Source of the DNA: a virus
Lineage: Duplodnaviria > Heunggongvirae > Uroviricota > Caudoviricetes
DNA length: 47,379 nucleotides
Reading direction: 5' to 3' (one strand)
IMG/VR virus record: IMGVR_UViG_2721755497_000004
Shown piece after piece: positions 2,360 to 45,961 of this stretch; position 1 is the first letter of the stretch, and every line of letters begins with the position of its first letter. The notes beneath the pieces were generated by a model, which was given only the letters and a program-made list of their open reading frames with translations, made no database searches and was not told the origin of the DNA. The translations under genes and the position numbers were made by a program.

Positions 2360-2688
2360 TAAAAATCGTGGTTTACAGGATTAAAAAGGTGCTATCCGGA
2401 ACCGGAATTCACACAGTGAACTGTGGGTGATCCAGATAATGAGCACTACCGTGATACAAATCACGGTGGTTTTTAACGGTTTTTGCGACACAGAACTTGC
2501 TCCTTATTACGGAGAGGCGCTAACCTGCCACTTGCTTAAGGTAGACGGTTCAGGGCCTCGGGTTAACATTGAAGTTGACTCGGGGCCTTTTCACATCAGG
2601 CCTTCAGGTGTTCCCTCCGGCCATCAGCCAAAGGCACCCGCGCATACTGTACGGTTTTATATCCTTCCGGCAATTCCGGTCATCATGT

Positions 2689-8595: not shown

Positions 8596-9759
8596 TCAGA
8601 ACTGATAAGTCATCCCAACAGCAACGATATTATCTGTCGCAATACCGGCTTTCTGGGTAAATTCGCTTTCATCAATCAGGTTAATTTTATAATCAACATA
8701 AGTGGACATATTTTTGTTAAAGTAATAAGTCGCACCGACATCAATATATTTAACCAGATCCTGGTCGCCATGGTTCACACCACCAACCATAACATCCTGT
8801 CCGCGGGACTGCAGATAAGCCAGAGATGGACGCAGGCCAAAATCGAACTGATACTGAGCAACCATTTCAAGGTTTTGTGCTTTATCCGCAACCCCGGTAT
8901 CACCAAAAGTGGTCATATTCTGGGTTTCGGAATAAATTGCAGCCAGATACAGATTGTTTGCATCATATTTAAGGCCAGTCCCCCACATCTCAGCATACTT
9001 ACCTTTTGCAACGCTGCCGGAATCAACGGACACTTCTTTTTCCGTCACATCCCCCGTTAAAGGATCTTTGACTTCAATAGTTTTGCTACCATTCAGGCCA
9101 TTAACCTGCTTACCTGTACGATCTGACTTAGTATACGCTGCCACAAAACCAAAACCATCAAACTCATAGCTGGCAGAGAAACCATATCCATCACCATTAG
9201 ACTTCTGGAGGTCATCTCGCTCATTTTTTCCCTGATACTGGGCTGCAAAGTTAAGACCATCCACCAGTCCGAAGAAATCTGTATTGCGGTAAGTCAGCAC
9301 TCCGGAAGTACGAGCAGTCATGAAGTTATCAGTCTGCGTCCAGCCATCGCCACCAAATTCTGGCAGAACGTCTGTATACGAACCGACATCATAAGCGATA
9401 CCATAATTACGCCCGTAATCAATGCTACCTAAATCAGCGAATTTCAAACCGGCAAATGCCAGACGGGTTTTATTGCCTGCCGTCCCTTCAGACTCGGCCT
9501 TATTACCTGAAAACTGATATTCCCAGTGACCAAAACCTGTCAGTTGATCATTGATCTGAGTCTCACCTTTAAAACCAAGACGTGCATAGGTCTTATCGCC
9601 ATCATCACCTTTATCGTCTGAGAAGTAATGGAGAGCAGTTACACGACCATAAAGATCCAGCTTATTACCATCTTTATTATAAACTTCTGCTGCCTGAGCC
9701 CCCGCAGCAAACATCACTGCCACTGCAACAGCAGAAAGTGCCACTGTCATTTTTTTCAT
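8596..9759 (-). CDS. OmpC/NmpC/Lc-family outer membrane porin (phage moron)
   Basis: 387-aa ORF with cleavable signal peptide (…[10 protein letters not shown]), enterobacterial general-porin motifs and C-terminal ...GMTYQF; flanked by AT-rich DNA; inserted between tail genes M and L. Confidence 0.9.
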
Positions 9760-21056: not shown

Positions 21057-22968
21057 TCACTCCTCCGGACAGCTTCGCTGCCAGTTCTTTAAGGGTTGGC
21101 CGGGTCGTCTCTTCTTCCCGGGATTTTGCCAGTACAGCCAGATCAAGCTGCCAGCGTTGCACGGACACACGTAATGCCGCGTAGGCATACACCAGGCAGT
21201 CCAGCGCTTCGTTACGCCGCTTTTTGTTATCCCACAGCAGACGCATCTTTCCTTTTTCCCACTTCTCCACAAGCTCCTCCGCGACCAGTTGCTGCGCCTC
21301 TGTCTGCGAAAAAATCTCCGGATCATCAGGAAAACGGATGGCATATGACGTGGCTTCATCCGCAGGCATGGGATCGGCTTTCATACGGGCATAGAGAATT
21401 TCTTTTGCGGTGTCCGTCCCCACTTCACACAGATACACGCCCCGCTGATTGCGGGTTTTTGGCATGGTGATCACCGGCTTGCCATAGACAGATGCGCCTT
21501 TTACCGGCAGCACCCGGAAAACACCGTGTTTTTTTGACCTCTGATAAACGATTTCGCCATCGATCCCCCCGGTGTCCCAGCAGACACGGGAAATGGTTAT
21601 TTCGGTACCGTCTGCATGGCGGTATTTTTTGTTGATCGCCGCATCCACACGTAACAGCGTCTCTTCCTCATCAGGACGCCCCATAATGATGATTTTATCC
21701 ACCAGAAAGGCTTCCTCTCCCGGAGCCCATCCCCAGACATACATCTCAAAACGGTTTCGCTGCGAGTCAATACCCGCCGTCAGATAAACCACCCGGGCAG
21801 GCACCGCCGCCGTGTAATGAACAACCTTATCCATCAGTACCTGGTGATCGAGTTTTTCGCCCACGGCCTCTTCCCAGGTCTCGCCCAGCGTGGTGTTCAC
21901 AAAGGTTTTCAGGCCGTTGGGATCTTTCAGTGCATCCAGCCAGTCATAGACAATCTGTACCCAGGTGGTGAACGGACTGTACGCCGTCCAGATATGGAAC
22001 GTGATGGAGCGCGGCGGCGGAATTTCATTACCCGCAGCGCTGAAAAACGTCAGACCGTCACGGGTCCACATGCCCGTGTTTTCACAGATCCACCGCCCGT
22101 TGCTCTGGTCAAGTTCAGACTGACGGATCACGCAACCATTATGTTCACAGAGGTAGAAAACACTTTCGGGTCTGTCCTTCTCCCATTTAAGGCCAAAAGG
22201 CGTGGACTCATCGCCAAATTTCAGATACTGCTCCTCCCCACAGTGCGGGCAGGGCACATAAAAACGCATGAAATGTGCCGACTCGTTAGCGGCTTTTTCG
22301 ATCTGGCAGGTGCCTTTGATTTTAGGCGTCGAGCCGCGAATGGATTTTGGCCATACAGAGCCCTCAATACGTTTATCCCCCAGCAGGGTTGGCGAACCCT
22401 CTTTTTCGACATCCGGCTCGAACGAGGAAAGCTCGTCATAACAGACCACATCCACGGATTTTTCACGGTAGTTTTTGGCGGCAGCACCACCCAGGCACCA
22501 GAAGCCCACACCCGATGAAAAGCGTTTCAGCGTGAGAGTATTATCACGATGTTTACGACCCAGCCATGGGGAAAGGTCTTTCAGGCATGGCACGTCCCGA
22601 ATCGTCGCCTCCACATGAGACTTCATAAAATCTTCAGCGGCAGAATCCGTAGGCTGAAAAAGCAGACTGTTTCGGGATTTATGCTCAATAAAATACCCGA
22701 TCACCCCCAGCAACATCTTTGTATAGCCAACACGGGCAGATTTAATCAGATTAACAGTGCGGCTCTGATCATTCCCCATACTGTTCATGATGGCGATCTG
22801 GAATGGCAGCGTTTTCCATTCGCCGTCACCGTATGAGGATTCTTTAGGCAGATAATAATTTTGATCAGCCCATTCAACTGCCGTCATCGGTACAACCCTG
22901 ACCAGAGGCTGCAGCGCAACCGAAACGGCAGCCATCATATTATTCAGTTGTTGCTCTGATATATTCAT
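21040..22968 (-). CDS. A: terminase large subunit A
   Basis: Start at the MNISEQQLNNMM Met; matches lambda gpA along its length (…AVEWADQNYYLPKESSYGDGEWKTLPFQ…). Confidence 0.95.
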   Translation of the reverse strand: MNISEQQLNNMMAAVSVALQPLVRVVPMTAVEWADQNYYLPKESSYGDGEWKTLPFQIAIMNSMGNDQSRTVNLIKSARVGYTKMLLGVIGYFIEHKSRNSLLFQPTDSAAEDFMKSHVEATIRDVPCLKDLSPWLGRKHRDNTLTLKRFSSGVGFWCLGGAAAKNYREKSVDVVCYDELSSFEPDVEKEGSPTLLGDKRIEGSVWPKSIRGSTPKIKGTCQIEKAANESAHFMRFYVPCPHCGEEQYLKFGDESTPFGLKWEKDRPESVFYLCEHNGCVIRQSELDQSNGRWICENTGMWTRDGLTFFSAAGNEIPPPRSITFHIWTAYSPFTTWVQIVYDWLDALKDPNGLKTFVNTTLGETWEEAVGEKLDHQVLMDKVVHYTAAVPARVVYLTAGIDSQRNRFEMYVWGWAPGEEAFLVDKIIIMGRPDEEETLLRVDAAINKKYRHADGTEITISRVCWDTGGIDGEIVYQRSKKHGVFRVLPVKGASVYGKPVITMPKTRNQRGVYLCEVGTDTAKEILYARMKADPMPADEATSYAIRFPDDPEIFSQTEAQQLVAEELVEKWEKGKMRLLWDNKKRRNEALDCLVYAYAALRVSVQRWQLDLAVLAKSREEETTRPTLKELAAKLSGGVNGYSR

Positions 22969-23449
22969 CAAGTAAATCCGGTAATTTATCCCCTGCCCGC
23001 GCACACTGATTTGCGCCCTTTGCAATAAGGGTTTTCAGATGTTCAATATGACGTGGCGTTAAATCCGGGAACTGTCGCTGCATGGATAAAGGGATGGAAT
23101 CAAGCGTACTGGATAACGCCATTGCCAGCTTACTGAGGGCAAAAATACAGAATCCGGTGTCGATCAGTTTTCCTTTTGACACCTCATTTTTTAGCTGTTG
23201 TGTAACGGCCTGTTCTGCTGTCAGTTCCCATCTGGCAATAAGCAATTTCTCTTCATAATCTTCTTCCGGCTCACCATCAGACACATCGTTTTTACTTCTC
23301 CTCAGATACGATATGTAAAAATCACGCCAGGCATCCAGATCCAGTTGCCCTCGCTTATTCGAGACCGGAGCACCCGGTAATTTCTGCAATCTGCGAAGCT
23401 GGCGATCGGTCAGACTTAAATGCCTGGCAACTTCAGTCTGCGTAGCCAC
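22940..23449 (-). CDS. nu1: terminase small subunit (Nu1-like)
   Basis: 169-aa ORF immediately downstream of cos, N-terminal HTH, central/C-terminal similarity to lambda Nu1 (…FCIFALSKLA…LPLSMQRQFPDL…LLDEYI). Confidence 0.8.
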   Translation of the reverse strand: MATQTEVARHLSLTDRQLRRLQKLPGAPVSNKRGQLDLDAWRDFYISYLRRSKNDVSDGEPEEDYEEKLLIARWELTAEQAVTQQLKNEVSKGKLIDTGFCIFALSKLAMALSSTLDSIPLSMQRQFPDLTPRHIEHLKTLIAKGANQCARAGDKLPDLLDEYIRATTE

Positions 23450-23496: not shown

Positions 23497-23595
23497 CATG
23501 TCCGGTTCACATGCTCATTTTTTGCGCATGTCCGGTTCACAGAAGACCTGTTTTTATATTTTTCATATAGTTAACTTGCAGAGAAACCGGACATG
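23497..23595. promoter_or_regulatory. cosB: three Nu1-binding R-site repeats (CATGTCCGGTT) with AT-rich spacer
   Basis: Two direct copies at 23497-23513 and 23527-23540 and one inverted copy at 23584-23595, between nu1 start and cosN. Confidence 0.6.
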
Positions 23596-24403: not shown

Positions 24404-24946
24404 ATGAACAGATACTCTAAACTTCAAATTCAATTACATTGGCTGACTCTCGTATTAATAGCTATAGCCTGTGCTGCAATGGAACTTCGAGGTTTGTTTC
24501 CTAAAGGGTCTTCCTCCTATTTGCTTATGAGAGAAACACATTACAATGCTGGTATATTTATTCTTCTACTGATGATAATAAGAGTAATTATCAATAATAA
24601 ATATATAACACCAGCTATTACGCCGCCCCCACCTGCATGGCAAATGATATCAGCCAAATTCATGCAAACCCTGTTATACATATCTTTTTTGGTGTTACCA
24701 GTATCAGGACTTGCAATCATGGTTTTTGGAGGTAAAGCATGGAGCCTTCTGGGGATTGATATTCCCACTTTCGCTAACACCGACGGAGAAGTAAAATCCG
24801 TAGCCAAAACTATTCATGAATCACTTGCAAATATTGGTTATTTATTAATCACACTCCATGCTGGCGCTGCATTAATTCATCATTATATTCAGAAGGACAA
24901 TACACTTGTCAGAATGCTCCCTGAGCACCAGCATGATAAAAAGTGA
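24404..24946 (+). CDS. cytochrome b561 family protein (CybB-like, moron)
   Basis: 180-aa ORF with conserved b561 motifs (…YSKLQIQLHWL…, …HESLANIGYLLITLHAGAALIHHYIQKDNTLVRMLP), four predicted TM helices, AT-rich, RBS AAGGGA. Confidence 0.8.
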   Translation: MNRYSKLQIQLHWLTLVLIAIACAAMELRGLFPKGSSSYLLMRETHYNAGIFILLLMIIRVIINNKYITPAITPPPPAWQMISAKFMQTLLYISFLVLPVSGLAIMVFGGKAWSLLGIDIPTFANTDGEVKSVAKTIHESLANIGYLLITLHAGAALIHHYIQKDNTLVRMLPEHQHDKK

Positions 24947-31587: not shown

Positions 31588-31665
31588 TGGACCGTCACCG
31601 GGGACTCGAACCCCGCATTTTCAACATAAAAAGGTTGATGCTCTTTCCTGATGAGCTAGTGACGG
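31588..31665 (-). tRNA. tRNA-like gene with 8-nt anticodon loop (possible unusual tRNA or pseudogene)
   Basis: 7-bp acceptor stem CCGTCAC/GTGACGG, encoded CCA, D arm GCTC/GAGC, T arm CGGGG-TTCGAGT-CCCCG, but anticodon arm TCAAC-CTTTTTAT-GTTGA has an 8-nt loop. Confidence 0.45.
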
Positions 31666-31667
31666 CA

Positions 31668-31742
31668 TGGTTGCCTTGCTGGATTTGAACCAGCGACCTG
31701 GCGATTATGAGTCTCTCGCTCTCACCACTGAGCTAAAGGGCC
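31668..31742 (-). tRNA. tRNA with CAU anticodon (Ile2/Met-like), acceptor and anticodon stems imperfect
   Basis: GGCCCTTTAGCTCAGTGG...CTCATAA...GCTGGTTCAAATCCAGC...CCA; D and T arms canonical; 3 terminal acceptor pairs and 2 anticodon-stem pairs mismatched; one nt short. Confidence 0.55.
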
Positions 31743-36116: not shown

Positions 36117-36272
36117 TTACTCCTCAGGTTCGTAAGCTGTGAAGACAGCGACCTCCGTCTGGCCGGTTCGGATTCGTACCTCGCAGAGGTCTTTCCTCGT
36201 TACCAGTGCCGTCACTATGACGGTTAAACAGATGACGATCAGGGCGATTAACATCGCCTTTTGCTGCTTCAT
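36117..36272 (-). CDS. hokD: Hok-family type I toxin
   Basis: 51-aa MKQQKAMLIALIVICLTVIVTALVTRKDLCEVRIRTGQTEVAVFTAYEPEE, canonical Hok; nested in the longer mok-like frame starting at 36329. Confidence 0.85.
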   Translation of the reverse strand: MKQQKAMLIALIVICLTVIVTALVTRKDLCEVRIRTGQTEVAVFTAYEPEE

Positions 36273-39448: not shown

Positions 39449-39844
39449 ATGGATTTTGCAACTATCACAAGTAGCGTTGTGTTGAGTGCGTGTGTTGCAG
39501 GCGTGGTTTCGCTGGTTAATGGTGCCTGGCAACGCAAATCGGAACGAACCATTGAAGCGCAACGCCGGGCTGCTGAAGCCAGAGCAAAAATAAGAGAAAT
39601 GGCTCTCACCCTCGCATTGAAAGAATGGGAGCTCCACCAAACCATATCGAAGGCAAAGGGGTATGGTGTCAGCGGCCCAGAAGTTTACGTCTTTCGATAC
39701 TTTCGTATGCTCAACCTGATGGAGGAAGACAAATTCACGATTGAAAATCTCAGACTGATCCAGTACGACTCCATGTGTGCTGTTGCAGCAATTCAGGCAG
39801 AGATCGAGCGATATCGGGAGAAAAACGGCCTCCCGATGCCATAA
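39449..39844 (+). CDS. hypothetical membrane-anchored coiled-coil protein (counter-oriented moron)
   Basis: 131-aa ORF with RBS GAGGAGG; N-terminal TM then charged helical region; opposite orientation inside the early-right operon. Confidence 0.5.
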   Translation: MDFATITSSVVLSACVAGVVSLVNGAWQRKSERTIEAQRRAAEARAKIREMALTLALKEWELHQTISKAKGYGVSGPEVYVFRYFRMLNLMEEDKFTIENLRLIQYDSMCAVAAIQAEIERYREKNGLPMP

Positions 39845-40936: not shown

Positions 40937-41413
40937 ATGCTTAGTGGTAAAGACTTAGGCCGAGCGATAGAGCAGGCCATTAACAAAAAAATTGCATCAG
41001 GATCCGTCAAATCAAAGGCGGAGGTAGCGCGTCACTTCAAAGTCCAACCACCATCAATCTATGATTGGATTAAGAAAGGTTCGATAAGTAAAGATAAACT
41101 TCCAGAGCTATGGCGTTTCTTTTCTGATGTGGTTGGCCCAGAGCATTGGGGGCTTAACGAATACCCCATACCAACCTCCCTCATTTCAGATACAAAAAGT
41201 GAACTTTTAGACATAAACAGCCTTTATCAAGCCGCCTCTGATGAAAAAAGAGCCATTGTGGCTTTTCTCTTATCAGAAAATGCCACGGAACCTAGTTGGG
41301 TTGATCATGACGTTCGCGCCTACATTGCCACAATGGAGATGAAGGTAGGTAAGTATTTGAAAGATCGAGAATCAGAACGGAAAAGCCAGAACATCACCAA
41401 AACGGGAACTTAA
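40937..41413 (+). CDS. racR: prophage repressor (RacR-like)
   Basis: 158-aa ORF, RBS AGGAGAG, N-terminal HTH (…SKAEVARHFKVQPPSIYDWIKKG…), divergently transcribed from ydaS. Confidence 0.65.
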   Translation: MLSGKDLGRAIEQAINKKIASGSVKSKAEVARHFKVQPPSIYDWIKKGSISKDKLPELWRFFSDVVGPEHWGLNEYPIPTSLISDTKSELLDINSLYQAASDEKRAIVAFLLSENATEPSWVDHDVRAYIATMEMKVGKYLKDRESERKSQNITKTGT

Positions 41414-41480: not shown

Positions 41481-41540
41481 CATCGCCTATTAGGTTTGCG
41501 TCAAAAACATTAGGCTAAGCCTATTGACAATTAATTAGGC
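41481..41540. promoter_or_regulatory. additional TTAGGC-type palindromic sites downstream of racR
   Basis: TTAGGCTAAGCCTAT palindrome at 41509-41523 and related half-sites. Confidence 0.35.
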
Positions 41541-41732
41541 ATTACCTATAGTTCTCCCATACCACCCCACCCCGCCCACAGAACACCGGGCAATACTTCG
41601 AGTTACCCGGCAGTGGTCAGGGGTTAAGTAGCCAGCCTGAGGCGTAAGAACATGACGGCAGGGTTCAACTTTAATAACTATGCAGCAGGTTTTTGTTCCG
41701 CTCCCCCGGCGTTAAGGGGAAATGAGGTCAAC

Positions 41733-41885: not shown

Positions 41886-41998
41886 TGAAGTCTGGTAGTT
41901 AAGGAATCCTCCACGGGGAGAACTGGTGCACACGCGCCGGACACAAGCAAGCATCCGGCATGCTCTTTAACAATCTGGATATCCATAACAGTAACAAT

Positions 41999-42556
41999 CT
42001 ACAGATTGCCGTTCAGTTTTCTGGCCAACTCCTCAATAGATGGAGGCGATACATAATCCGGATTTTTATTCATAAGAAACTGATTTTCACAGTAGAGGCA
42101 CCTGCTTTTATGAAAAAACTCATATTCTCTAACCGGGAATGGTTGAAGTATCGATACTATCTTTTGTCCAAAACATTTTGGACAAAGATGCATGATTATG
42201 CTGCCGCCGTTCACGGTTACCTCCTTCGAGTACACAAAAGTTCCCGACTCAAGTTGGTTAAGGATATAACCTTCCGTCTGAGCCTCAAAGTTTTCAAATT
42301 CTGCAATTTTAGCTTTGAGAGAAGCATTTATTTCTTGATAAGTGCCCACCAGCTCAACGAGAGACACGCATTCGCGCTGAATAGATGCAAGCTTTGAGTT
42401 CAGTTCACCAATAGCCGCATTTACTTCAGCTTGAGTTTTTGCCTCGTTCATTAGTTTTGCAATCTGAGCGGTTTCACGAATAGCCGTCATTGCTGCCGTT
42501 AATTCAGCGATCACATTCAATACTCTTATTGTTGTTGGGGATATCCAGATTAACAA
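41999..42556 (-). CDS. hypothetical coiled-coil protein with C-terminal zinc-ribbon (CPKC...CLYC)
   Basis: 185-aa AT-rich ORF counter-oriented within the leftward early region next to the repressor; exact start uncertain. Confidence 0.5.
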   Translation of the reverse strand: MLIWISPTTIRVLNVIAELTAAMTAIRETAQIAKLMNEAKTQAEVNAAIGELNSKLASIQRECVSLVELVGTYQEINASLKAKIAEFENFEAQTEGYILNQLESGTFVYSKEVTVNGGSIIMHLCPKCFGQKIVSILQPFPVREYEFFHKSRCLYCENQFLMNKNPDYVSPPSIEELARKLNGNL

Positions 42557-42864
42557 GATCCTTGTTGTTGGGGAATAACAGGTCCACCTCGCCTGACGTG
42601 GTTAAAAGCAGGCACACAACACGAAAGCGCTCGGCGAAGTTCGTCTCTCTGTACTTTGTCGTTAAATTTAATTCGACCGTGCGCTTCCGGTTGTGGCAAT
42701 CCGCGAAATAGCGCGGCGGTAAGTATGGCGGGGTTATTCCTTCCCCCATTGAGGACACCGGGTTGTCAGGTTGACCATACGCTTAAGTGACACCCCAGCC
42801 ACAACAACCTCTGTTATCACTTTTCTGGTGATTCGGCGGAAATGGATATCCGCCCTTTTTAAAG

Positions 42865-43020
42865 TGAATTTTGTGATGCGGTGAATGCGGCTATGCGCAC
42901 GCGGAACAGTTAAAACAAGCGGTCTTTTACTTCCGTAACAGACATCAACTAACAATCCGGCGTTAATTGTTAACTGGTTAACGTCATCTGGAGGCACCAG
43001 GCACCGCATCACAAAATTCA
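42865..43020. repeat. pair of perfect 19-bp inverted repeats (TGAATTTTGTGATGCGGTG / CACCGCATCACAAAATTCA) flanking 118 bp
   Basis: Exact reverse complements at 42865-42883 and 43002-43020; interior contains GTTAAC-type palindromes. Confidence 0.6.
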
Positions 43021-43037
43021 TTGTTGAGGACGCGATA

Positions 43038-43226
43038 ATGGAAACGTTATTACCAAACGTTAATACGTCTGAAGGTTGTTTTGAAATTGGTGTCAGTATC
43101 AGTAACCCTGCATTTACTGAAGATGCCATTAATAAGAGAAAACACGAACGGGAGTTATTAAATCAAATATGCATTGTTTCAATGCTGGCCCGTTTACGTC
43201 TGATGCAAAAAGGATACTGGCAATGA
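43038..43226 (+). CDS. hypothetical small protein
   Basis: 62-aa ORF starting right after the inverted-repeat structure; ATGA-coupled to the next ORF. Confidence 0.4.
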   Translation: METLLPNVNTSEGCFEIGVSISNPAFTEDAINKRKHERELLNQICIVSMLARLRLMQKGYWQ

Positions 43227-43504: not shown

Positions 43505-45961
43505 ATGAGCGCTGATAAAGAAGAAATTGCACTATATTACGAAGCCAAAAATGACAAAGTCAGAAAACGTCTTGGGATTAAAGGCGGTTTTTACTGGCGC
43601 ACAGCAAAAAAATTATCGGTTGCAATATCACGCGGTGTTGTCGCAATGGACGATGCTGGATTTGACGAAGAGGATTTTAAAAAACCTGTTCGCGTCCATT
43701 TACCCGTTGTGAATGACCTTCCTCCGGAAGGCGTGTTTGATACCGAATTCTGCAACCGATACGAAAAAGGCGGGGAAGATGGTATCACAATGGTACTTAT
43801 CGCGCCCTCACCTATCGCGCCCTCACCCTCTGTTCAGGACAAACCAGCCAGCACTGACAATACCAACGTCAACGGCGAAGACATGACTGAGATTGAGGAG
43901 AATATGCTCCTGCCGGTTTCAGGTCAGATTCTGCCTGTTCAATGGCTGGCACAGCACGGCAGCGAAAAACCGATCACACACGTTTCGCGGGGCGAACTGC
44001 GCGCATTACATAACGCACAGGATGAAAAACTTCCCGCCGTTACCGCGCTGGCCATCTCAAATAAAGCTGCGCAACTCGAACCGCTGGAAATTCGCGATCT
44101 CCACAAACTGGTTCGTGACACTGACAAGGTTTTCCCTAATCCTGGTAATTCAGACCTGGGGCTGATGACTGCTTTTTTCGAAGCATACCTGGGCGCTGAC
44201 TACACCGATCGCGGTCTGCTGACAAAAGAGTGGATGAAAGGAAATCGTGTTTCACGCATCACCCGCACGACTTCCGGTGCTAATGCCGGTGGAGGGAACA
44301 AAACCGATCGCAATCCGAATTTAGTACACACCCTCGACACACTGGATGTGGAGATTGCAGCAGCCACACTTCCGATGGATTTTAATATTTATGAAATTCC
44401 GGGCAGCATTTATCGTCGCGCAAAAGAAGTCGTCCTGAAAAAAGAAAGTCCGTTCAAAGAATGGTCCGCAGCACTTCGTGCAACCCCGGGTATTCTGGAC
44501 TATTCCCGCGCCGCTATTTTTGCACTTATCCGAAGCGCACACCCTGAATTTTATCACTACCCGGGACGCCTTCAGGGGTATATCAACGCCTATTTGACGG
44601 AAACTGATCACGAGACCCCCAGCAAGGAAACTCTCACAGCTGCCCGGCATACGCCGGAAAAAGATATCCTGGAAGAAATTAACCGCGAGGTGGTTACTGA
44701 GCGTGAAACAGAAAAAGAAAAACCACAACCATCTGACGCAATGGCAGGTGAACAGGCAACAACTGAAACAATGGAACAGGATACAACTGAACATTGCCAG
44801 GACGCGCAGTCGCTGGATGCTCAGTCGCAGGTGAGTTCCGCTAACCAATTAAAAGTCACCGCTGACGAAGTAAACAAAATTATGCAGGCAGCCAGTATCA
44901 GCCAGCCTGATGCCGATAAGTTGCTTGCTGTATCGCGTGGTGAATTTGTTGAAGGGATTAGCGATCCGAATGATCCTAAATGGGTGAAGGGGATTGAAAC
45001 CCGCGATTCTGTGAACCAGAACCAGCAAGAAACGGAACAGAACGACCAGAAAGCGGAACAAAACAGCCCAAATACGCAACAAAACGAGCCAGAAACGAAA
45101 CAACCTGAACCAGTAGTGCAACAAGAACCGGAAAAGATCTGCGCCGCCTGCGGTCAGAGCGGTGGCGGCAACTGCCCTGATTGTGGTGCGGTGATGGGCG
45201 ACGCAACATACCAGGAAACATTCGATGACAAGAACCAGGTTGAAGTTCAGGAAGACGATTCGGAGAAAATGGAAGGCGCTGAACATCCACACAAGGAGAA
45301 TGCTGGCAGCGCTCAGGACCACGCCAGCGATAGTGAAACTGACGAGACGGCAGATCCCTTAATTACGGTGAACAGTCATCACGTTATCACATCCACCAGC
45401 AGGACGTGTGACCATCTAATGATCGACCTTGAAACCATGGGAAAAAATCCTGATGCCCCGATTATCTCAATAGGTGCAATATTTTTCGATCCGCAAACCG
45501 GAGATATGGGACCGGAATTTAGTAAGACTGTCGATCTGGAAACTGCTGGCGGAGTCATTGATCGGGACACCATTAAATGGTGGCTTAAGCAATCACGCGA
45601 AGCGCAATCTGCCATTATGACCGATGAAATCCCGTTAGATGATGCACTGTTACAATTGCGGGAATTTATCGACGAAAACTCCGGTGAATTTTTTGTTCAG
45701 GTCTGGGGTAACGGTGCAACTTTCGACAACGTGATTTTACGCCGTTCATATGAACGGCAGGGGATCCCCTGCCCGTGGCGTTACACCAATGATCGCGATG
45801 TAAGAACGATGGTTGCTCTGGGACTGGTGATGGATTTCGACGCAAGAACGACTATTCCATTCGAAGGTGAACGCCATAACGCCCTGCACGATGCGCGTTA
45901 CCAGGCAAAATACGTTTCAGCCATCTGGCAAAAACTGATCCCGAGTCAGGCTGATTTTTAA
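43505..45961 (+). CDS. RecE-like prophage exonuclease with C-terminal DEDDh (DnaQ-like) 3'-5' exonuclease domain
   Basis: 818-aa ORF; N-terminal and central segments resemble the RecE non-catalytic region as recalled; C-terminal ~190 aa has Exo I (MIDLETMG), Exo II (WGNGATFD) and Exo III (HNALHDARY) motifs; acidic linker with CxxC...CxxC. Confidence 0.7.
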   Translation: MSADKEEIALYYEAKNDKVRKRLGIKGGFYWRTAKKLSVAISRGVVAMDDAGFDEEDFKKPVRVHLPVVNDLPPEGVFDTEFCNRYEKGGEDGITMVLIAPSPIAPSPSVQDKPASTDNTNVNGEDMTEIEENMLLPVSGQILPVQWLAQHGSEKPITHVSRGELRALHNAQDEKLPAVTALAISNKAAQLEPLEIRDLHKLVRDTDKVFPNPGNSDLGLMTAFFEAYLGADYTDRGLLTKEWMKGNRVSRITRTTSGANAGGGNKTDRNPNLVHTLDTLDVEIAAATLPMDFNIYEIPGSIYRRAKEVVLKKESPFKEWSAALRATPGILDYSRAAIFALIRSAHPEFYHYPGRLQGYINAYLTETDHETPSKETLTAARHTPEKDILEEINREVVTERETEKEKPQPSDAMAGEQATTETMEQDTTEHCQDAQSLDAQSQVSSANQLKVTADEVNKIMQAASISQPDADKLLAVSRGEFVEGISDPNDPKWVKGIETRDSVNQNQQETEQNDQKAEQNSPNTQQNEPETKQPEPVVQQEPEKICAACGQSGGGNCPDCGAVMGDATYQETFDDKNQVEVQEDDSEKMEGAEHPHKENAGSAQDHASDSETDETADPLITVNSHHVITSTSRTCDHLMIDLETMGKNPDAPIISIGAIFFDPQTGDMGPEFSKTVDLETAGGVIDRDTIKWWLKQSREAQSAIMTDEIPLDDALLQLREFIDENSGEFFVQVWGNGATFDNVILRRSYERQGIPCPWRYTNDRDVRTMVALGLVMDFDARTTIPFEGERHNALHDARYQAKYVSAIWQKLIPSQADF

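What the first reader, a model, noticed from the sequence alone, without database searches (positions are those of the whole stretch)
41999..42620. AT-rich counter-oriented gene next to the repressor: candidate exclusion or defence function
A 185-aa ORF (coiled-coil N-terminal half, C-terminal zinc-ribbon) is transcribed opposite to the surrounding leftward early operon, in the neighbourhood where lambdoid phages carry rex/sieB-type exclusion genes. It is markedly AT-rich. Its upstream region carries two direct copies of TTGTTGTTGGGGA about 30 bp apart (42527-42580).
Basis: inference. Interest (0 to 1): 0.6.

Follow-up and report, generated by a model that had tools for sequence, protein, structure and literature searches.

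The report
Rip1-type prophage defence gene, antisense-gated
The backwards-facing gene in this E. coli prophage is a distant relative of Rip1, a recently described phage-defence protein that forms membrane pores, and it sits behind the same control sequence that phage P22 uses to switch off its own exclusion gene sieB.

Summary
A counter-oriented, AT-poor-GC ORF (41.7% vs 51% GC) lies inside the leftward early operon of a Rac/Qin-like prophage of E. coli M3. Its real start is probably GTG 42514 (171 aa), not TTG 42556 (185 aa). Two exact 13-nt repeats lie upstream.

The protein is a divergent member (27-30% identity) of the Rip1 family. Rip1 is a single-gene, pore-forming defence activated by ring-shaped phage proteins (Patel et al., Nature 2026). 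Evidence: profile E=1e-23 to PDB 9oox, and a confident AF2 model whose only significant fold match is 9oox. HK446 rip1 and HK620 hkaP occupy the equivalent sieB slot.

The roughly 110 nt upstream is homologous to the P22 sieB leader. Its complement matches the P22 sas antisense RNA at 82 of 117 positions. One copy forms a conserved hairpin that is stable only on the antisense strand.

The same leader precedes SieB, Rip1 homologues and at least 25 unknown small proteins in other phages.

This is a new member of a known kind. Function and the antisense self-protection model are inferred, not shown.

The parts
41999..42514 (-). rip1-like CDS, 171 aa (GTG start 42514, stop codon included). N-terminal small-residue-rich amphipathic helices, C-terminal beta domain with a 4-Cys zinc ribbon.
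42523..42527 (-). Shine-Dalgarno-like AAGAG, 8 nt upstream of the GTG
   Evidence: conserved position in alignment A5
42529..42541 (.). Repeat copy 2, the gene-proximal copy. TTGTTGTTGGGGA on the plus strand, TCCCCAACAACAA on the mRNA strand. Predicted to be the extreme 5' end of the mRNA.
42547..42552 (-). Inferred -10 hexamer TAATCT. It matches TAnnnT, with TA invariant and the last T conserved in at least 90% of 33 long leaders.
   Evidence: invariant T70, A71; nearly invariant T75; inferred, not mapped
42562..42574 (.). Repeat copy 1, the distal copy. On the plus strand it is the 5' arm plus GGGG loop of the sas-like hairpin.
42561..42582 (+). sas-like hairpin CUUGUUGUU-GGGG-AAUAACAGG: 9 bp including 2 G.U pairs, stable only on the plus (antisense) strand
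42584..42613 (.). Invariant core GCCTGCTTTTAACCACGTCAGGCGAGGTGG (written on the minus strand), shared by all leaders of this family
42504..42616 (+). Region homologous to the P22 sas antisense RNA: 82/117 identical, alignment score 79 against 20 +/- 3.8 for shuffles
41963..41997 (.). 3' element. CTCTTTAACAATCTGGATATCC (41963-41984) is identical or nearly so (one or two differences in three of them) in the 9 divergent cassettes examined. A third, inverted copy of the repeat region (41972-41997) is complementary to 42526-42551.
41963..42613 (.). Mobile cassette. It is about 95% identical in unrelated lambdoid phages PhiR49_1/PhiR29 next to cI. It is absent from Tritos-like backbones, which carry ydfB/ydfC here.
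41524..41552 (+). PL-like early promoter TTGACA-17-TATAGT. Its transcript must cross the cassette in antisense to reach dicF/dicB/recE/xis/int.
   Evidence: no plus-strand terminator predicted before 42835

Best explanation
The ORF encodes a divergent Rip1-family protein, a single-gene abortive-infection defence carried as a mobile 650-bp cassette.

By analogy with characterised Rip1, it would be made in the lysogen and be harmless on its own. When a superinfecting phage produces a ring-shaped morphogenesis protein (small terminase or portal), the zinc-ribbon beta domain would bind around the ring. The amphipathic N-terminal helices would then assemble into a membrane pore that kills the cell before progeny mature.

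The gene is expressed from a sieB-type leader. The likely -10 hexamer lies between the two repeats, so copy 2 forms the 5' end of the mRNA. The complementary strand, transcribed from the PL-like early promoter when the resident or a same-type phage grows lytically, contains a sas-like antisense RNA. This RNA pairs with the 5' UTR and Shine-Dalgarno region and shuts Rip1 synthesis off. That would spare the prophage from its own defence.

Shown here: homology, fold, cassette mobility, leader homology to sas, and the strand bias of the hairpin.

Inferred: defence activity, the trigger, pore formation, the transcription start site, and antisense repression.
For: Protein homology. The profile of 34 homologues against PDB hits only 9oox (HK446 Rip1 with T6 small terminase) at E=1.1e-23 over residues 6-152. 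The single sequence gives E=1.8e-7. The AF2 model has pLDDT 91. Foldseek against PDB gives 9oox_M at probability 1.00, E=6e-7, TM 0.72 and 28% identity; the next hit is E=0.16. tblastn finds the Pseudomonas JBD30/DMS3/D3112 homologues lying between two large genes that fit the review's small and large terminase (unnamed in the record; E=1e-11), HK620 HkaP (E=9e-13) and HK446_037 (E=4e-6). All four Cys, the VY motif and the ILQ motif are conserved across clades. N-terminal amphipathicity is comparable to the validated Rip1s.

Context. Validated and related homologues occupy the sieB slot. Distant homologues are always single genes beside the repressor, convergent with early transcription. In 56 of 64 leader-bearing loci the upstream flank is on the opposite strand.

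Mechanism of Rip1: review PMC13434031 section 5, PMC12908700, PMC13601566.

Leader. It is homologous to the published P22 sas sequence. The TAnnnT hexamer is invariant. The hairpin is stable on the antisense strand in 22 of 23 variants, mean -9.6 vs -5.0 kcal/mol, with 29 vs 11 G.U pairs. No plus-strand terminator is predicted between PL and the cassette.
Against: Identity to tested Rip1 proteins is only 27-30%, so trigger specificity or even activity may differ. No experiment or transcript map exists for this locus. PADLOC (2023), Pfam and NCBIfam give no hit.

The 122-nt leader folds no better than shuffles on either strand (z = 0.4 and 0.9). RNAalifold finds only the invariant core stem, with no covariation. 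The copy-2 region shows no conserved structure.

The primary Rip1 and sas papers could not be read. It is therefore unverified whether sas has its own promoter or is processed from the PL transcript. Rac/Qin-type phages have no known N-type antitermination.

In P22 sas switches translation from SieB to Esc. No Esc-like conserved internal start is evident here.
Confidence: 0.68

Rival explanations
1. The protein has the Rip1 fold but does another job in the lysogen. Examples: exclusion by blocking packaging or terminase assembly without pore formation, or a regulatory or anti-defence role that binds ring proteins of the resident phage.
For: Identity to tested Rip1s is low. The stretch between the two CxxC knuckles and the C-terminal tail are hypervariable. 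There is no predicted transmembrane segment: the maximum 18-residue mean hydrophobicity is 0.41.
Against: Validated Rip1s also lack a transmembrane segment and have a similar amphipathic N-terminus. The architecture, length (145-180 aa in 3,344 representatives) and genomic slot are the same. It shares a leader with the exclusion gene sieB.
Confidence: 0.17
2. The two repeats are DNA operators for a transcription factor, or simply a relic tandem duplication of the promoter unit. On this reading they are not elements of an antisense RNA switch.
For: The copies sit at about -35 and +1 relative to the inferred -10, three helical turns apart. Short leaders carry a single unit, with TGGTATnnT directly after the core, so the long form looks like a duplication of about 33 nt. 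Whole-region folding energy is unexceptional.
Against: Five different repeat sequences exist, and both copies change together while their flanks differ. No regulator travels with the cassette, and a host factor would hold one sequence fixed. The hairpin around copy 1 uses G.U pairs that work only on the antisense strand. The homologous P22 region is a documented antisense RNA.
Confidence: 0.12
3. It is an ordinary early phage gene (an antirepressor or a zinc-ribbon DNA-binding regulator), or a decaying ORF without function.
For: Databases annotate it only as a hypothetical protein. Zinc ribbons are common in regulators.
Against: No match to antirepressor or regulator families was found. The only structural relative is Rip1. 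Conservation is strong, with invariant Cys. It is present in 755 of 5,426 complete E. coli genomes, including O157:H7 at 98% nucleotide identity. It moves as a self-contained cassette between unrelated phages.
Confidence: 0.03

Closest known systems
Rip1 (ring interacting pore 1). Solved for Escherichia phage HK446 gp37 (PDB 9oox, in complex with T6 small terminase); first found in a Pseudomonas aeruginosa prophage, and the homologues found here are in JBD30/DMS3-type phages (Patel et al., Nature 651:1060, 2026).
   Same: It is a single small protein of 164-171 aa with N-terminal amphipathic helices. The C-terminal beta domain carries CxxC...CxxC, VY and ILQ motifs. It is prophage-borne and counter-oriented. 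The HK446 copy has the same sieB-type leader.
   Different: Identity is only 27-30%. The segment between the zinc knuckles and the C-terminal tail differ. The repeat type in the leader differs (CCCCAACAAC vs CCCCTACAG). This clade has an extra inverted element after the stop codon. The host backbone is Rac/Qin-like, between ydfA and dicF, rather than an N-cIII interval. Trigger and activity are untested.
P22 sieB-esc / sas antisense RNA switch (Ranade and Poteete, Genes Dev 1993; sequence in PMC13397905)
   Same: The leader is homologous: invariant core, two matched repeats 33-35 nt apart, the same position relative to the start codon, and embedding antisense to the PL operon.
   Different: The cargo protein is unrelated. 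SieB is a PF14163 membrane protein, whereas this is Rip1-like. No Esc-like internal start is evident. Antisense function has not been demonstrated for any non-sieB cargo as far as the searchable literature shows.
HK620 HkaP / HK630 HkaP
   Same: It is a Rip1-family homologue (28.8% identity, E=9e-13) in the same slot with the same leader. It was annotated in 2001 as a putative superinfection exclusion protein on positional grounds.
   Different: It belongs to a different subclade and has no experimental data.
IS10 RNA-OUT/RNA-IN and plasmid antisense controls (own knowledge; analogy only)
   Same: In these systems a structured antisense hairpin loop nucleates pairing with the 5' end of the target mRNA, and loop sequence defines specificity groups.
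   Different: There is no sequence relationship. The analogy is proposed only to explain why the two repeat copies stay identical.

Membership tests
Rip1 family | Significant sequence similarity to an experimentally characterised Rip1 | tested here: met
   The profile hits 9oox_L at E=1.1e-23. phmmer gives E=1.8e-7. tblastn gives E=1e-11 to the JBD30-type homologue and E=4e-6 to HK446_037.
Rip1 family | Fold: long N-terminal helices plus a C-terminal beta/zinc-ribbon domain superposable on the solved Rip1 | tested here: met
   AF2 pLDDT is 91. Foldseek gives 9oox_M at probability 1.00, TM 0.72 (target-normalised), over 120 columns; no other hit is below E=0.1. The four Cys are conserved across clades.
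Rip1 family | Amphipathic N-terminal helix without a classical transmembrane segment | tested here: met
   Maximum muH is 0.44 at residues 8-25. Mean muH over residues 1-75 is 0.28 against 0.20 +/- 0.04 for shuffles. These values are similar to HK446, JBD30 and HkaP. The signal is modest.
Rip1 family | Stand-alone gene in a prophage, not part of an operon with partner genes | tested here: met
Rip1 family | Protects against phages; not toxic alone; activated by oligomeric small terminase or portal; forms a 12-mer around the ring and a membrane pore | not testable with these tools
   Known only for HK446 and Pseudomonas Rip1, via the review and the PDB title.
sieB-type leader / sas antisense RNA (P22) | Sequence homology to the published sas RNA | tested here: met
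   82/117 identical; score 79 against a shuffle maximum of 41. The P22-type leader was recovered by the same motif scan.
sieB-type leader / sas antisense RNA (P22) | Conserved structure on the antisense strand | tested here: met
   The copy-1 hairpin forms in 23 sequence variants. The antisense strand is more stable in 22 of 23, with 29 vs 11 G.U pairs and mean z of -3.1 vs -1.8. The rest of the RNA gives no signal.
sieB-type leader / sas antisense RNA (P22) | Antisense RNA is actually made and represses translation of the cargo | not testable with these tools
   Inferred from the PL-like promoter and the absence of a predicted terminator. There are no transcript data.
SieB protein family (PF14163) | Match to the SieB Pfam model; membrane protein | tested here: not met
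   No Pfam hit, whereas SieB cargo behind the same leader scores E=1e-27.
Systems catalogued in PADLOC-DB v2 (2023) | Match to any defence-protein HMM | tested here: not met
   Best hit E=0.05. The library predates Rip1.

The most novel reading that the evidence does not exclude
The sieB/sas-type leader may be a portable, antisense-gated expression platform. On this reading it marks a hypervariable cargo slot in lambdoid prophages. Whatever gene sits behind it (SieB, Rip1 homologues, or at least 25 families of unknown small proteins) would be expressed in the lysogen. It would then be silenced when a phage carrying the matching leader type transcribes through it. The paired 10-13-nt repeats, which co-vary across five types, would be the specificity determinants. 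They would form incompatibility-like groups that decide which phages can disarm which prophage defences. The unknown cargo families would then be a ready-made list of candidate new defence genes.
Probability: 0.4. Interest if true: 0.75.

Novelty: new member of a known kind. Interest (0 to 1): 0.5.

Why it matters
The gene is carried by about 14% of complete E. coli genomes, including O157:H7, and is annotated everywhere as hypothetical. Naming it a Rip1-family defence gives it a testable function and predicts its trigger class, namely small terminase or portal rings.

The link to the sas leader offers a concrete answer to an open point for abortive-infection genes on prophages: how an inducible phage avoids being killed by its own sensor of packaging proteins. 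It also gives a simple 30-nt sequence tag that finds the slot and its unknown cargo in any lambdoid prophage.

Tried and rejected
Family scans. Pfam, NCBIfam and PADLOC scans of the protein gave only chance coiled-coil matches. PHROGs gave phrog_1244, of unknown function. Rfam at E<=1 found nothing over the leader.

Repeat statistics. The mismatch-tolerant pattern count for the repeat was uninformative: 2 found against 1.8 expected at up to 2 mismatches. It was replaced by an exact-repeat simulation.

RNA structure. RNAalifold on the leader alignment returned only the invariant core stem. Whole-leader MFE z-scores were not significant on either strand. The copy-2 region has no conserved hairpin.

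Literature. The primary papers (Patel 2026; Ranade and Poteete 1993) are not in the library. Searches for hkaP, HK446 and sieB+Rip1 gave nothing relevant. The Fc02 exclusion genes are unrelated.

Ideas rejected. The CA-rich leader is not the EHEC anti-sRNA AgvB, which lies at the PR' moron site. The NC_002371 coordinates did not correspond to the sas coordinates of the RNA-seq paper. SieB-like and Rex-like identities are rejected because there is no homology.

Full report
SETTING. The window is 100% identical to the chromosome of E. coli strain M3 (mouse; NZ_CP010183.1) and spans a lambdoid prophage integrated next to potC. The head and tail genes are lambda-like and look intact, with a small and a large terminase and a portal.

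The early region is of Rac/Qin type. On the minus strand lie a replication gene, a ydaT-like gene and a cro/ydaS-like HTH gene. On the plus strand lie racR (40937-41413; NCBIfam RacR E=2e-73), a near-consensus promoter at 41524-41552, a DUF1391/ydfA-like gene, a DicF-like RNA, dicB, a DUF1482 gene, a recE-like exonuclease, xis and int. In this window the leftward early operon therefore runs on the plus strand.

THE OBSERVATION. The ORF at 41999-42556 (minus strand, 185 aa from TTG) exists. RefSeq starts it at GTG 42514, giving 171 aa. The N-termini of 34 homologues align there. An AAGAG lies 8 nt upstream. Homologous cassettes cannot be extended upstream in frame.

The ORF is 41.7% GC against 51.0% for the window, the 5.5th percentile. 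The two exact 13-mers are at 42529-42541 and 42562-42574. A first-order Markov simulation expects 0.02 such pairs per window.

The predicted structure has pLDDT 91. It shows two long helices (2-24, 28-79) followed by a beta domain with four invariant cysteines.

WHAT THE PROTEIN IS. Pfam, NCBIfam and PADLOC give nothing, and PHROGs gives phrog_1244 of unknown function. A word-indexed search found 119 homologues of 150-175 aa across Enterobacterales, none of them named. A full HMM search of 1.84 billion representatives found 3,344 at E<=1e-3, nearly all of the best 150 being 140-180 aa.

A profile of 34 homologues matched one PDB sequence at E=1.1e-23. That sequence is 9oox chain L, 'ring interacting pore 1 (Rip1)', and the match covers residues 6-152. 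The single sequence matches at E=1.8e-7. Foldseek of the model against PDB returns only 9oox (HK446 Rip1 with T6 small terminase) as significant, at probability 1.00, TM 0.72 and 28% identity.

tblastn against phage genomes finds several relatives:
- the Pseudomonas JBD30/DMS3/D3112 homologue, counter-oriented between two large genes that the record leaves unnamed but that fit the review's small and large terminase (30% identity, E=1e-11);
- HK620/HK630 HkaP (E=9e-13);
- HK446_037 (E=4e-6).

The four Cys and the VY and ILQ motifs are shared by all clades. The N-terminal amphipathicity is modest but equal to that of the validated proteins.

WHAT RIP1 DOES (from the literature). I could not read the primary paper. 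The following comes from a 2026 review and two other papers:
- Rip1 is a prophage-encoded single protein that is harmless alone.
- Escaper phages carry mutations in the portal (Pseudomonas phages) or the small terminase (E. coli phages).
- Twelve Rip1 monomers ring an 11-mer small terminase.
- The N-terminal amphipathic helices form a pore that permeabilises liposomes and cells, so the infected cell is lysed prematurely.
- Homologues are widespread in proteobacterial prophages.

The window's protein meets every family feature that sequence and structure can test. Its activity is inferred.

GENOMIC LOGIC. HK446 rip1 and hkaP lie counter-oriented between N and cIII, which is the classical sieB position. 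The 2001 HK620 record already called hkaP a 'putative superinfection exclusion protein'.

The window's gene is a 650-bp cassette (41963-42613). It recurs at about 95% identity next to cI in otherwise unrelated phages (PhiR49_1, PhiR29). It replaces ydfB/ydfC of Tritos-like Qin-type phages. It occurs in 755 of 5,426 complete E. coli genomes, at 98% identity in O157:H7.

A Salmonella homologue (71% identity) sits just after cro. A Citrobacter homologue (58% identity) sits between xis and cI. Each is a lone gene facing early lytic transcription.

THE REPEATS AND THE LEADER. Aligning upstream regions showed that about 100 nt are conserved between this gene and HK446 rip1 or hkaP, although the proteins share under 30% identity.

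A 30-nt core, GCCTG(T)CTTTT(A/C)ACCAC(N)TCAGGC..GTGG, was used to scan IMG/VR. Together with the loci already fetched, these gave 124 distinct contexts. Only 26 carry a Rip1-like ORF. The others carry SieB (PF14163, E=1e-27) or some 25 further clusters of unknown 50-195-aa proteins.

The published P22 sas antisense RNA (127 nt, PMC13397905) is the exact complement of the SieB-type leader. The window's plus strand 42504-42616 aligns to it at 82 of 117 positions, with score 79 against a shuffle mean of 20 and maximum of 41.

ANATOMY OF THE LEADER. Two forms exist. Short leaders (66-72 nt from core to start) have TGGTATnnT right after the core, followed by a variable hairpin with compensatory changes abutting the Shine-Dalgarno.

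Long leaders (about 100 nt), like the window's, have the following features:
- There are two repeat copies 33-35 nt apart.
- Five repeat sequences occur: CCCCAACAAC, CCCCTACAG, TCCACAGTCAA, CCCCAATGCAA and CCCCCACAA.
- In each lineage both copies are the same while their flanks differ.
- Between the copies lies TAnnnT, with TA invariant. This is the signature of a -10 hexamer on the gene's strand.

This places copy 1 near -35 and copy 2 at the 5' end of the mRNA just before the Shine-Dalgarno. That placement is an inference.

Repeat type and cargo type are reassorted. The CCCCTACAG type precedes SieB (8 loci), Rip1-like genes (4) and others (5).

WHICH STRAND IS STRUCTURED. The segment around copy 1 folds into a 9-12-bp hairpin closed by a GGGG loop in the antisense orientation, in all 23 sequence variants. 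Mean energy is -9.6 against -5.0 kcal/mol for the sense strand. The antisense strand is more stable in 22 of 23 variants. It has 29 G.U pairs against 11, and mean z of -3.1 against -1.8. The full leader gives -23.2 against -19.7 kcal/mol, with antisense lower in 26 of 33.

The negative results must also be stated. The whole 122-nt region is no more stable than shuffles. RNAalifold sees only the invariant core stem. The copy-2 region has no conserved structure.

The picture is therefore an antisense RNA with three parts: an unstructured 5' part complementary to the start codon, Shine-Dalgarno and copy 2; one conserved hairpin (copy 1); and the invariant 3' core.

PROPOSED MECHANISM. In P22, sas made by a lytically growing phage pairs with sieB mRNA and switches off SieB synthesis, so P22 escapes its own exclusion (reviews). 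Here the PL-like promoter must read through the cassette in antisense to reach dicF, dicB, recE, xis and int. No terminator is predicted on that path.

I infer that induction of this prophage, or infection by a phage with the same leader type, produces a sas-like RNA that blocks translation of the Rip1-like protein. The phage's own terminase and portal rings would then not trigger suicide.

The identity of the two repeat copies would be explained if the structured loop of the hairpin (copy 1) must match the mRNA 5' end (copy 2) to nucleate pairing, as in IS10 RNA-OUT/RNA-IN (analogy from my own knowledge). The five repeat types would then be specificity groups. None of this has been tested.

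UNEXPLAINED. The invariant core shows no covariation; a pseudoknot (GCCTG/CAGGC with CCAC/GTGG) is possible.

Only the window's Rip1-like clade carries a third, inverted copy right after the stop codon. In the window it is 41972-41997 against 42526-42551 (26 nt, 81%). In Salmonella it is 23 nt at 87%, and in Citrobacter 18 nt at 94%. It lies within a near-invariant CTCTTTAACAATCTGGATATCC. This could pair the mRNA ends, create a double-stranded processing site on the PL transcript, or be a convergent promoter.

VERDICT. The gene is a new, untested member of the Rip1 family (published 2026), wired to a P22 sas-type leader (published 1993). I found no mention in the searchable literature of this leader being shared with many unknown cargo genes, or of the co-varying repeats. 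That is the part with potential novelty.

Noticed in passing
IMG/VR loci L094-L213 (leader motif scan); window 42584-42613: The 30-nt core of the sieB/sas leader precedes not only SieB and Rip1 homologues but at least 25 clusters of unknown 50-195-aa proteins. These include small zinc-ribbon proteins, a 107-aa membrane protein, and 150-165-aa proteins with no Pfam or PADLOC match. They are candidate new prophage defence or exclusion genes.
   Followed up: partly
window 41963-41997 (and L008 4518-4540, L011 4534-4551): A third, inverted copy of the repeat region lies directly after the stop codon, within a near-invariant CTCTTTAACAATCTGGATATCC. It is found only in this Rip1-like clade. Its function is unknown.
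   Followed up: partly
window 42822-42860 (+): The DicF-like sRNA has a 17-nt internal deletion relative to the DicF of phage Tritos. It keeps the TTTCTGGTGA 5' part and the terminator (42835-42854). Rfam DicF did not match at E<=1.
   Followed up: partly
window 42853-43070 (+): A weak match to Rfam STnc100 (32.5 bits, gathering score 47, E=4e-4) lies between the DicF terminator and dicB. A 2026 preprint relates STnc100 to the prophage sRNA PasD.
   Followed up: no
window 23497-23541: An exact 15-nt direct repeat, CATGTCCGGTTCACA, occurs twice 30 nt apart just upstream of the terminase small-subunit gene (22940-23449, minus strand). These are possibly cosB-type terminase binding sites.
   Followed up: no
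window 39449-39844 (+): A second counter-oriented ORF (131 aa, WP_000344866.1, hypothetical) lies inside the rightward early operon between the replication gene and the ydaT-like gene. It has no NCBIfam match and does not carry the sas-type core.
   Followed up: no
window 8596-9759 (-), 24404-24946 (+), 2381-2491 (-), 36117-36272 (-): Other morons are annotated in the prophage: an ompC-like porin among the tail genes, a cytochrome b, and two Hok-family toxins. tRNA-Lys and tRNA-Ile lie at 31588-31742.
   Followed up: no
window 43798-43827 (+): An exact 15-nt tandem repeat inside the recE-like gene encodes a duplicated IAPSP peptide.
   Followed up: no
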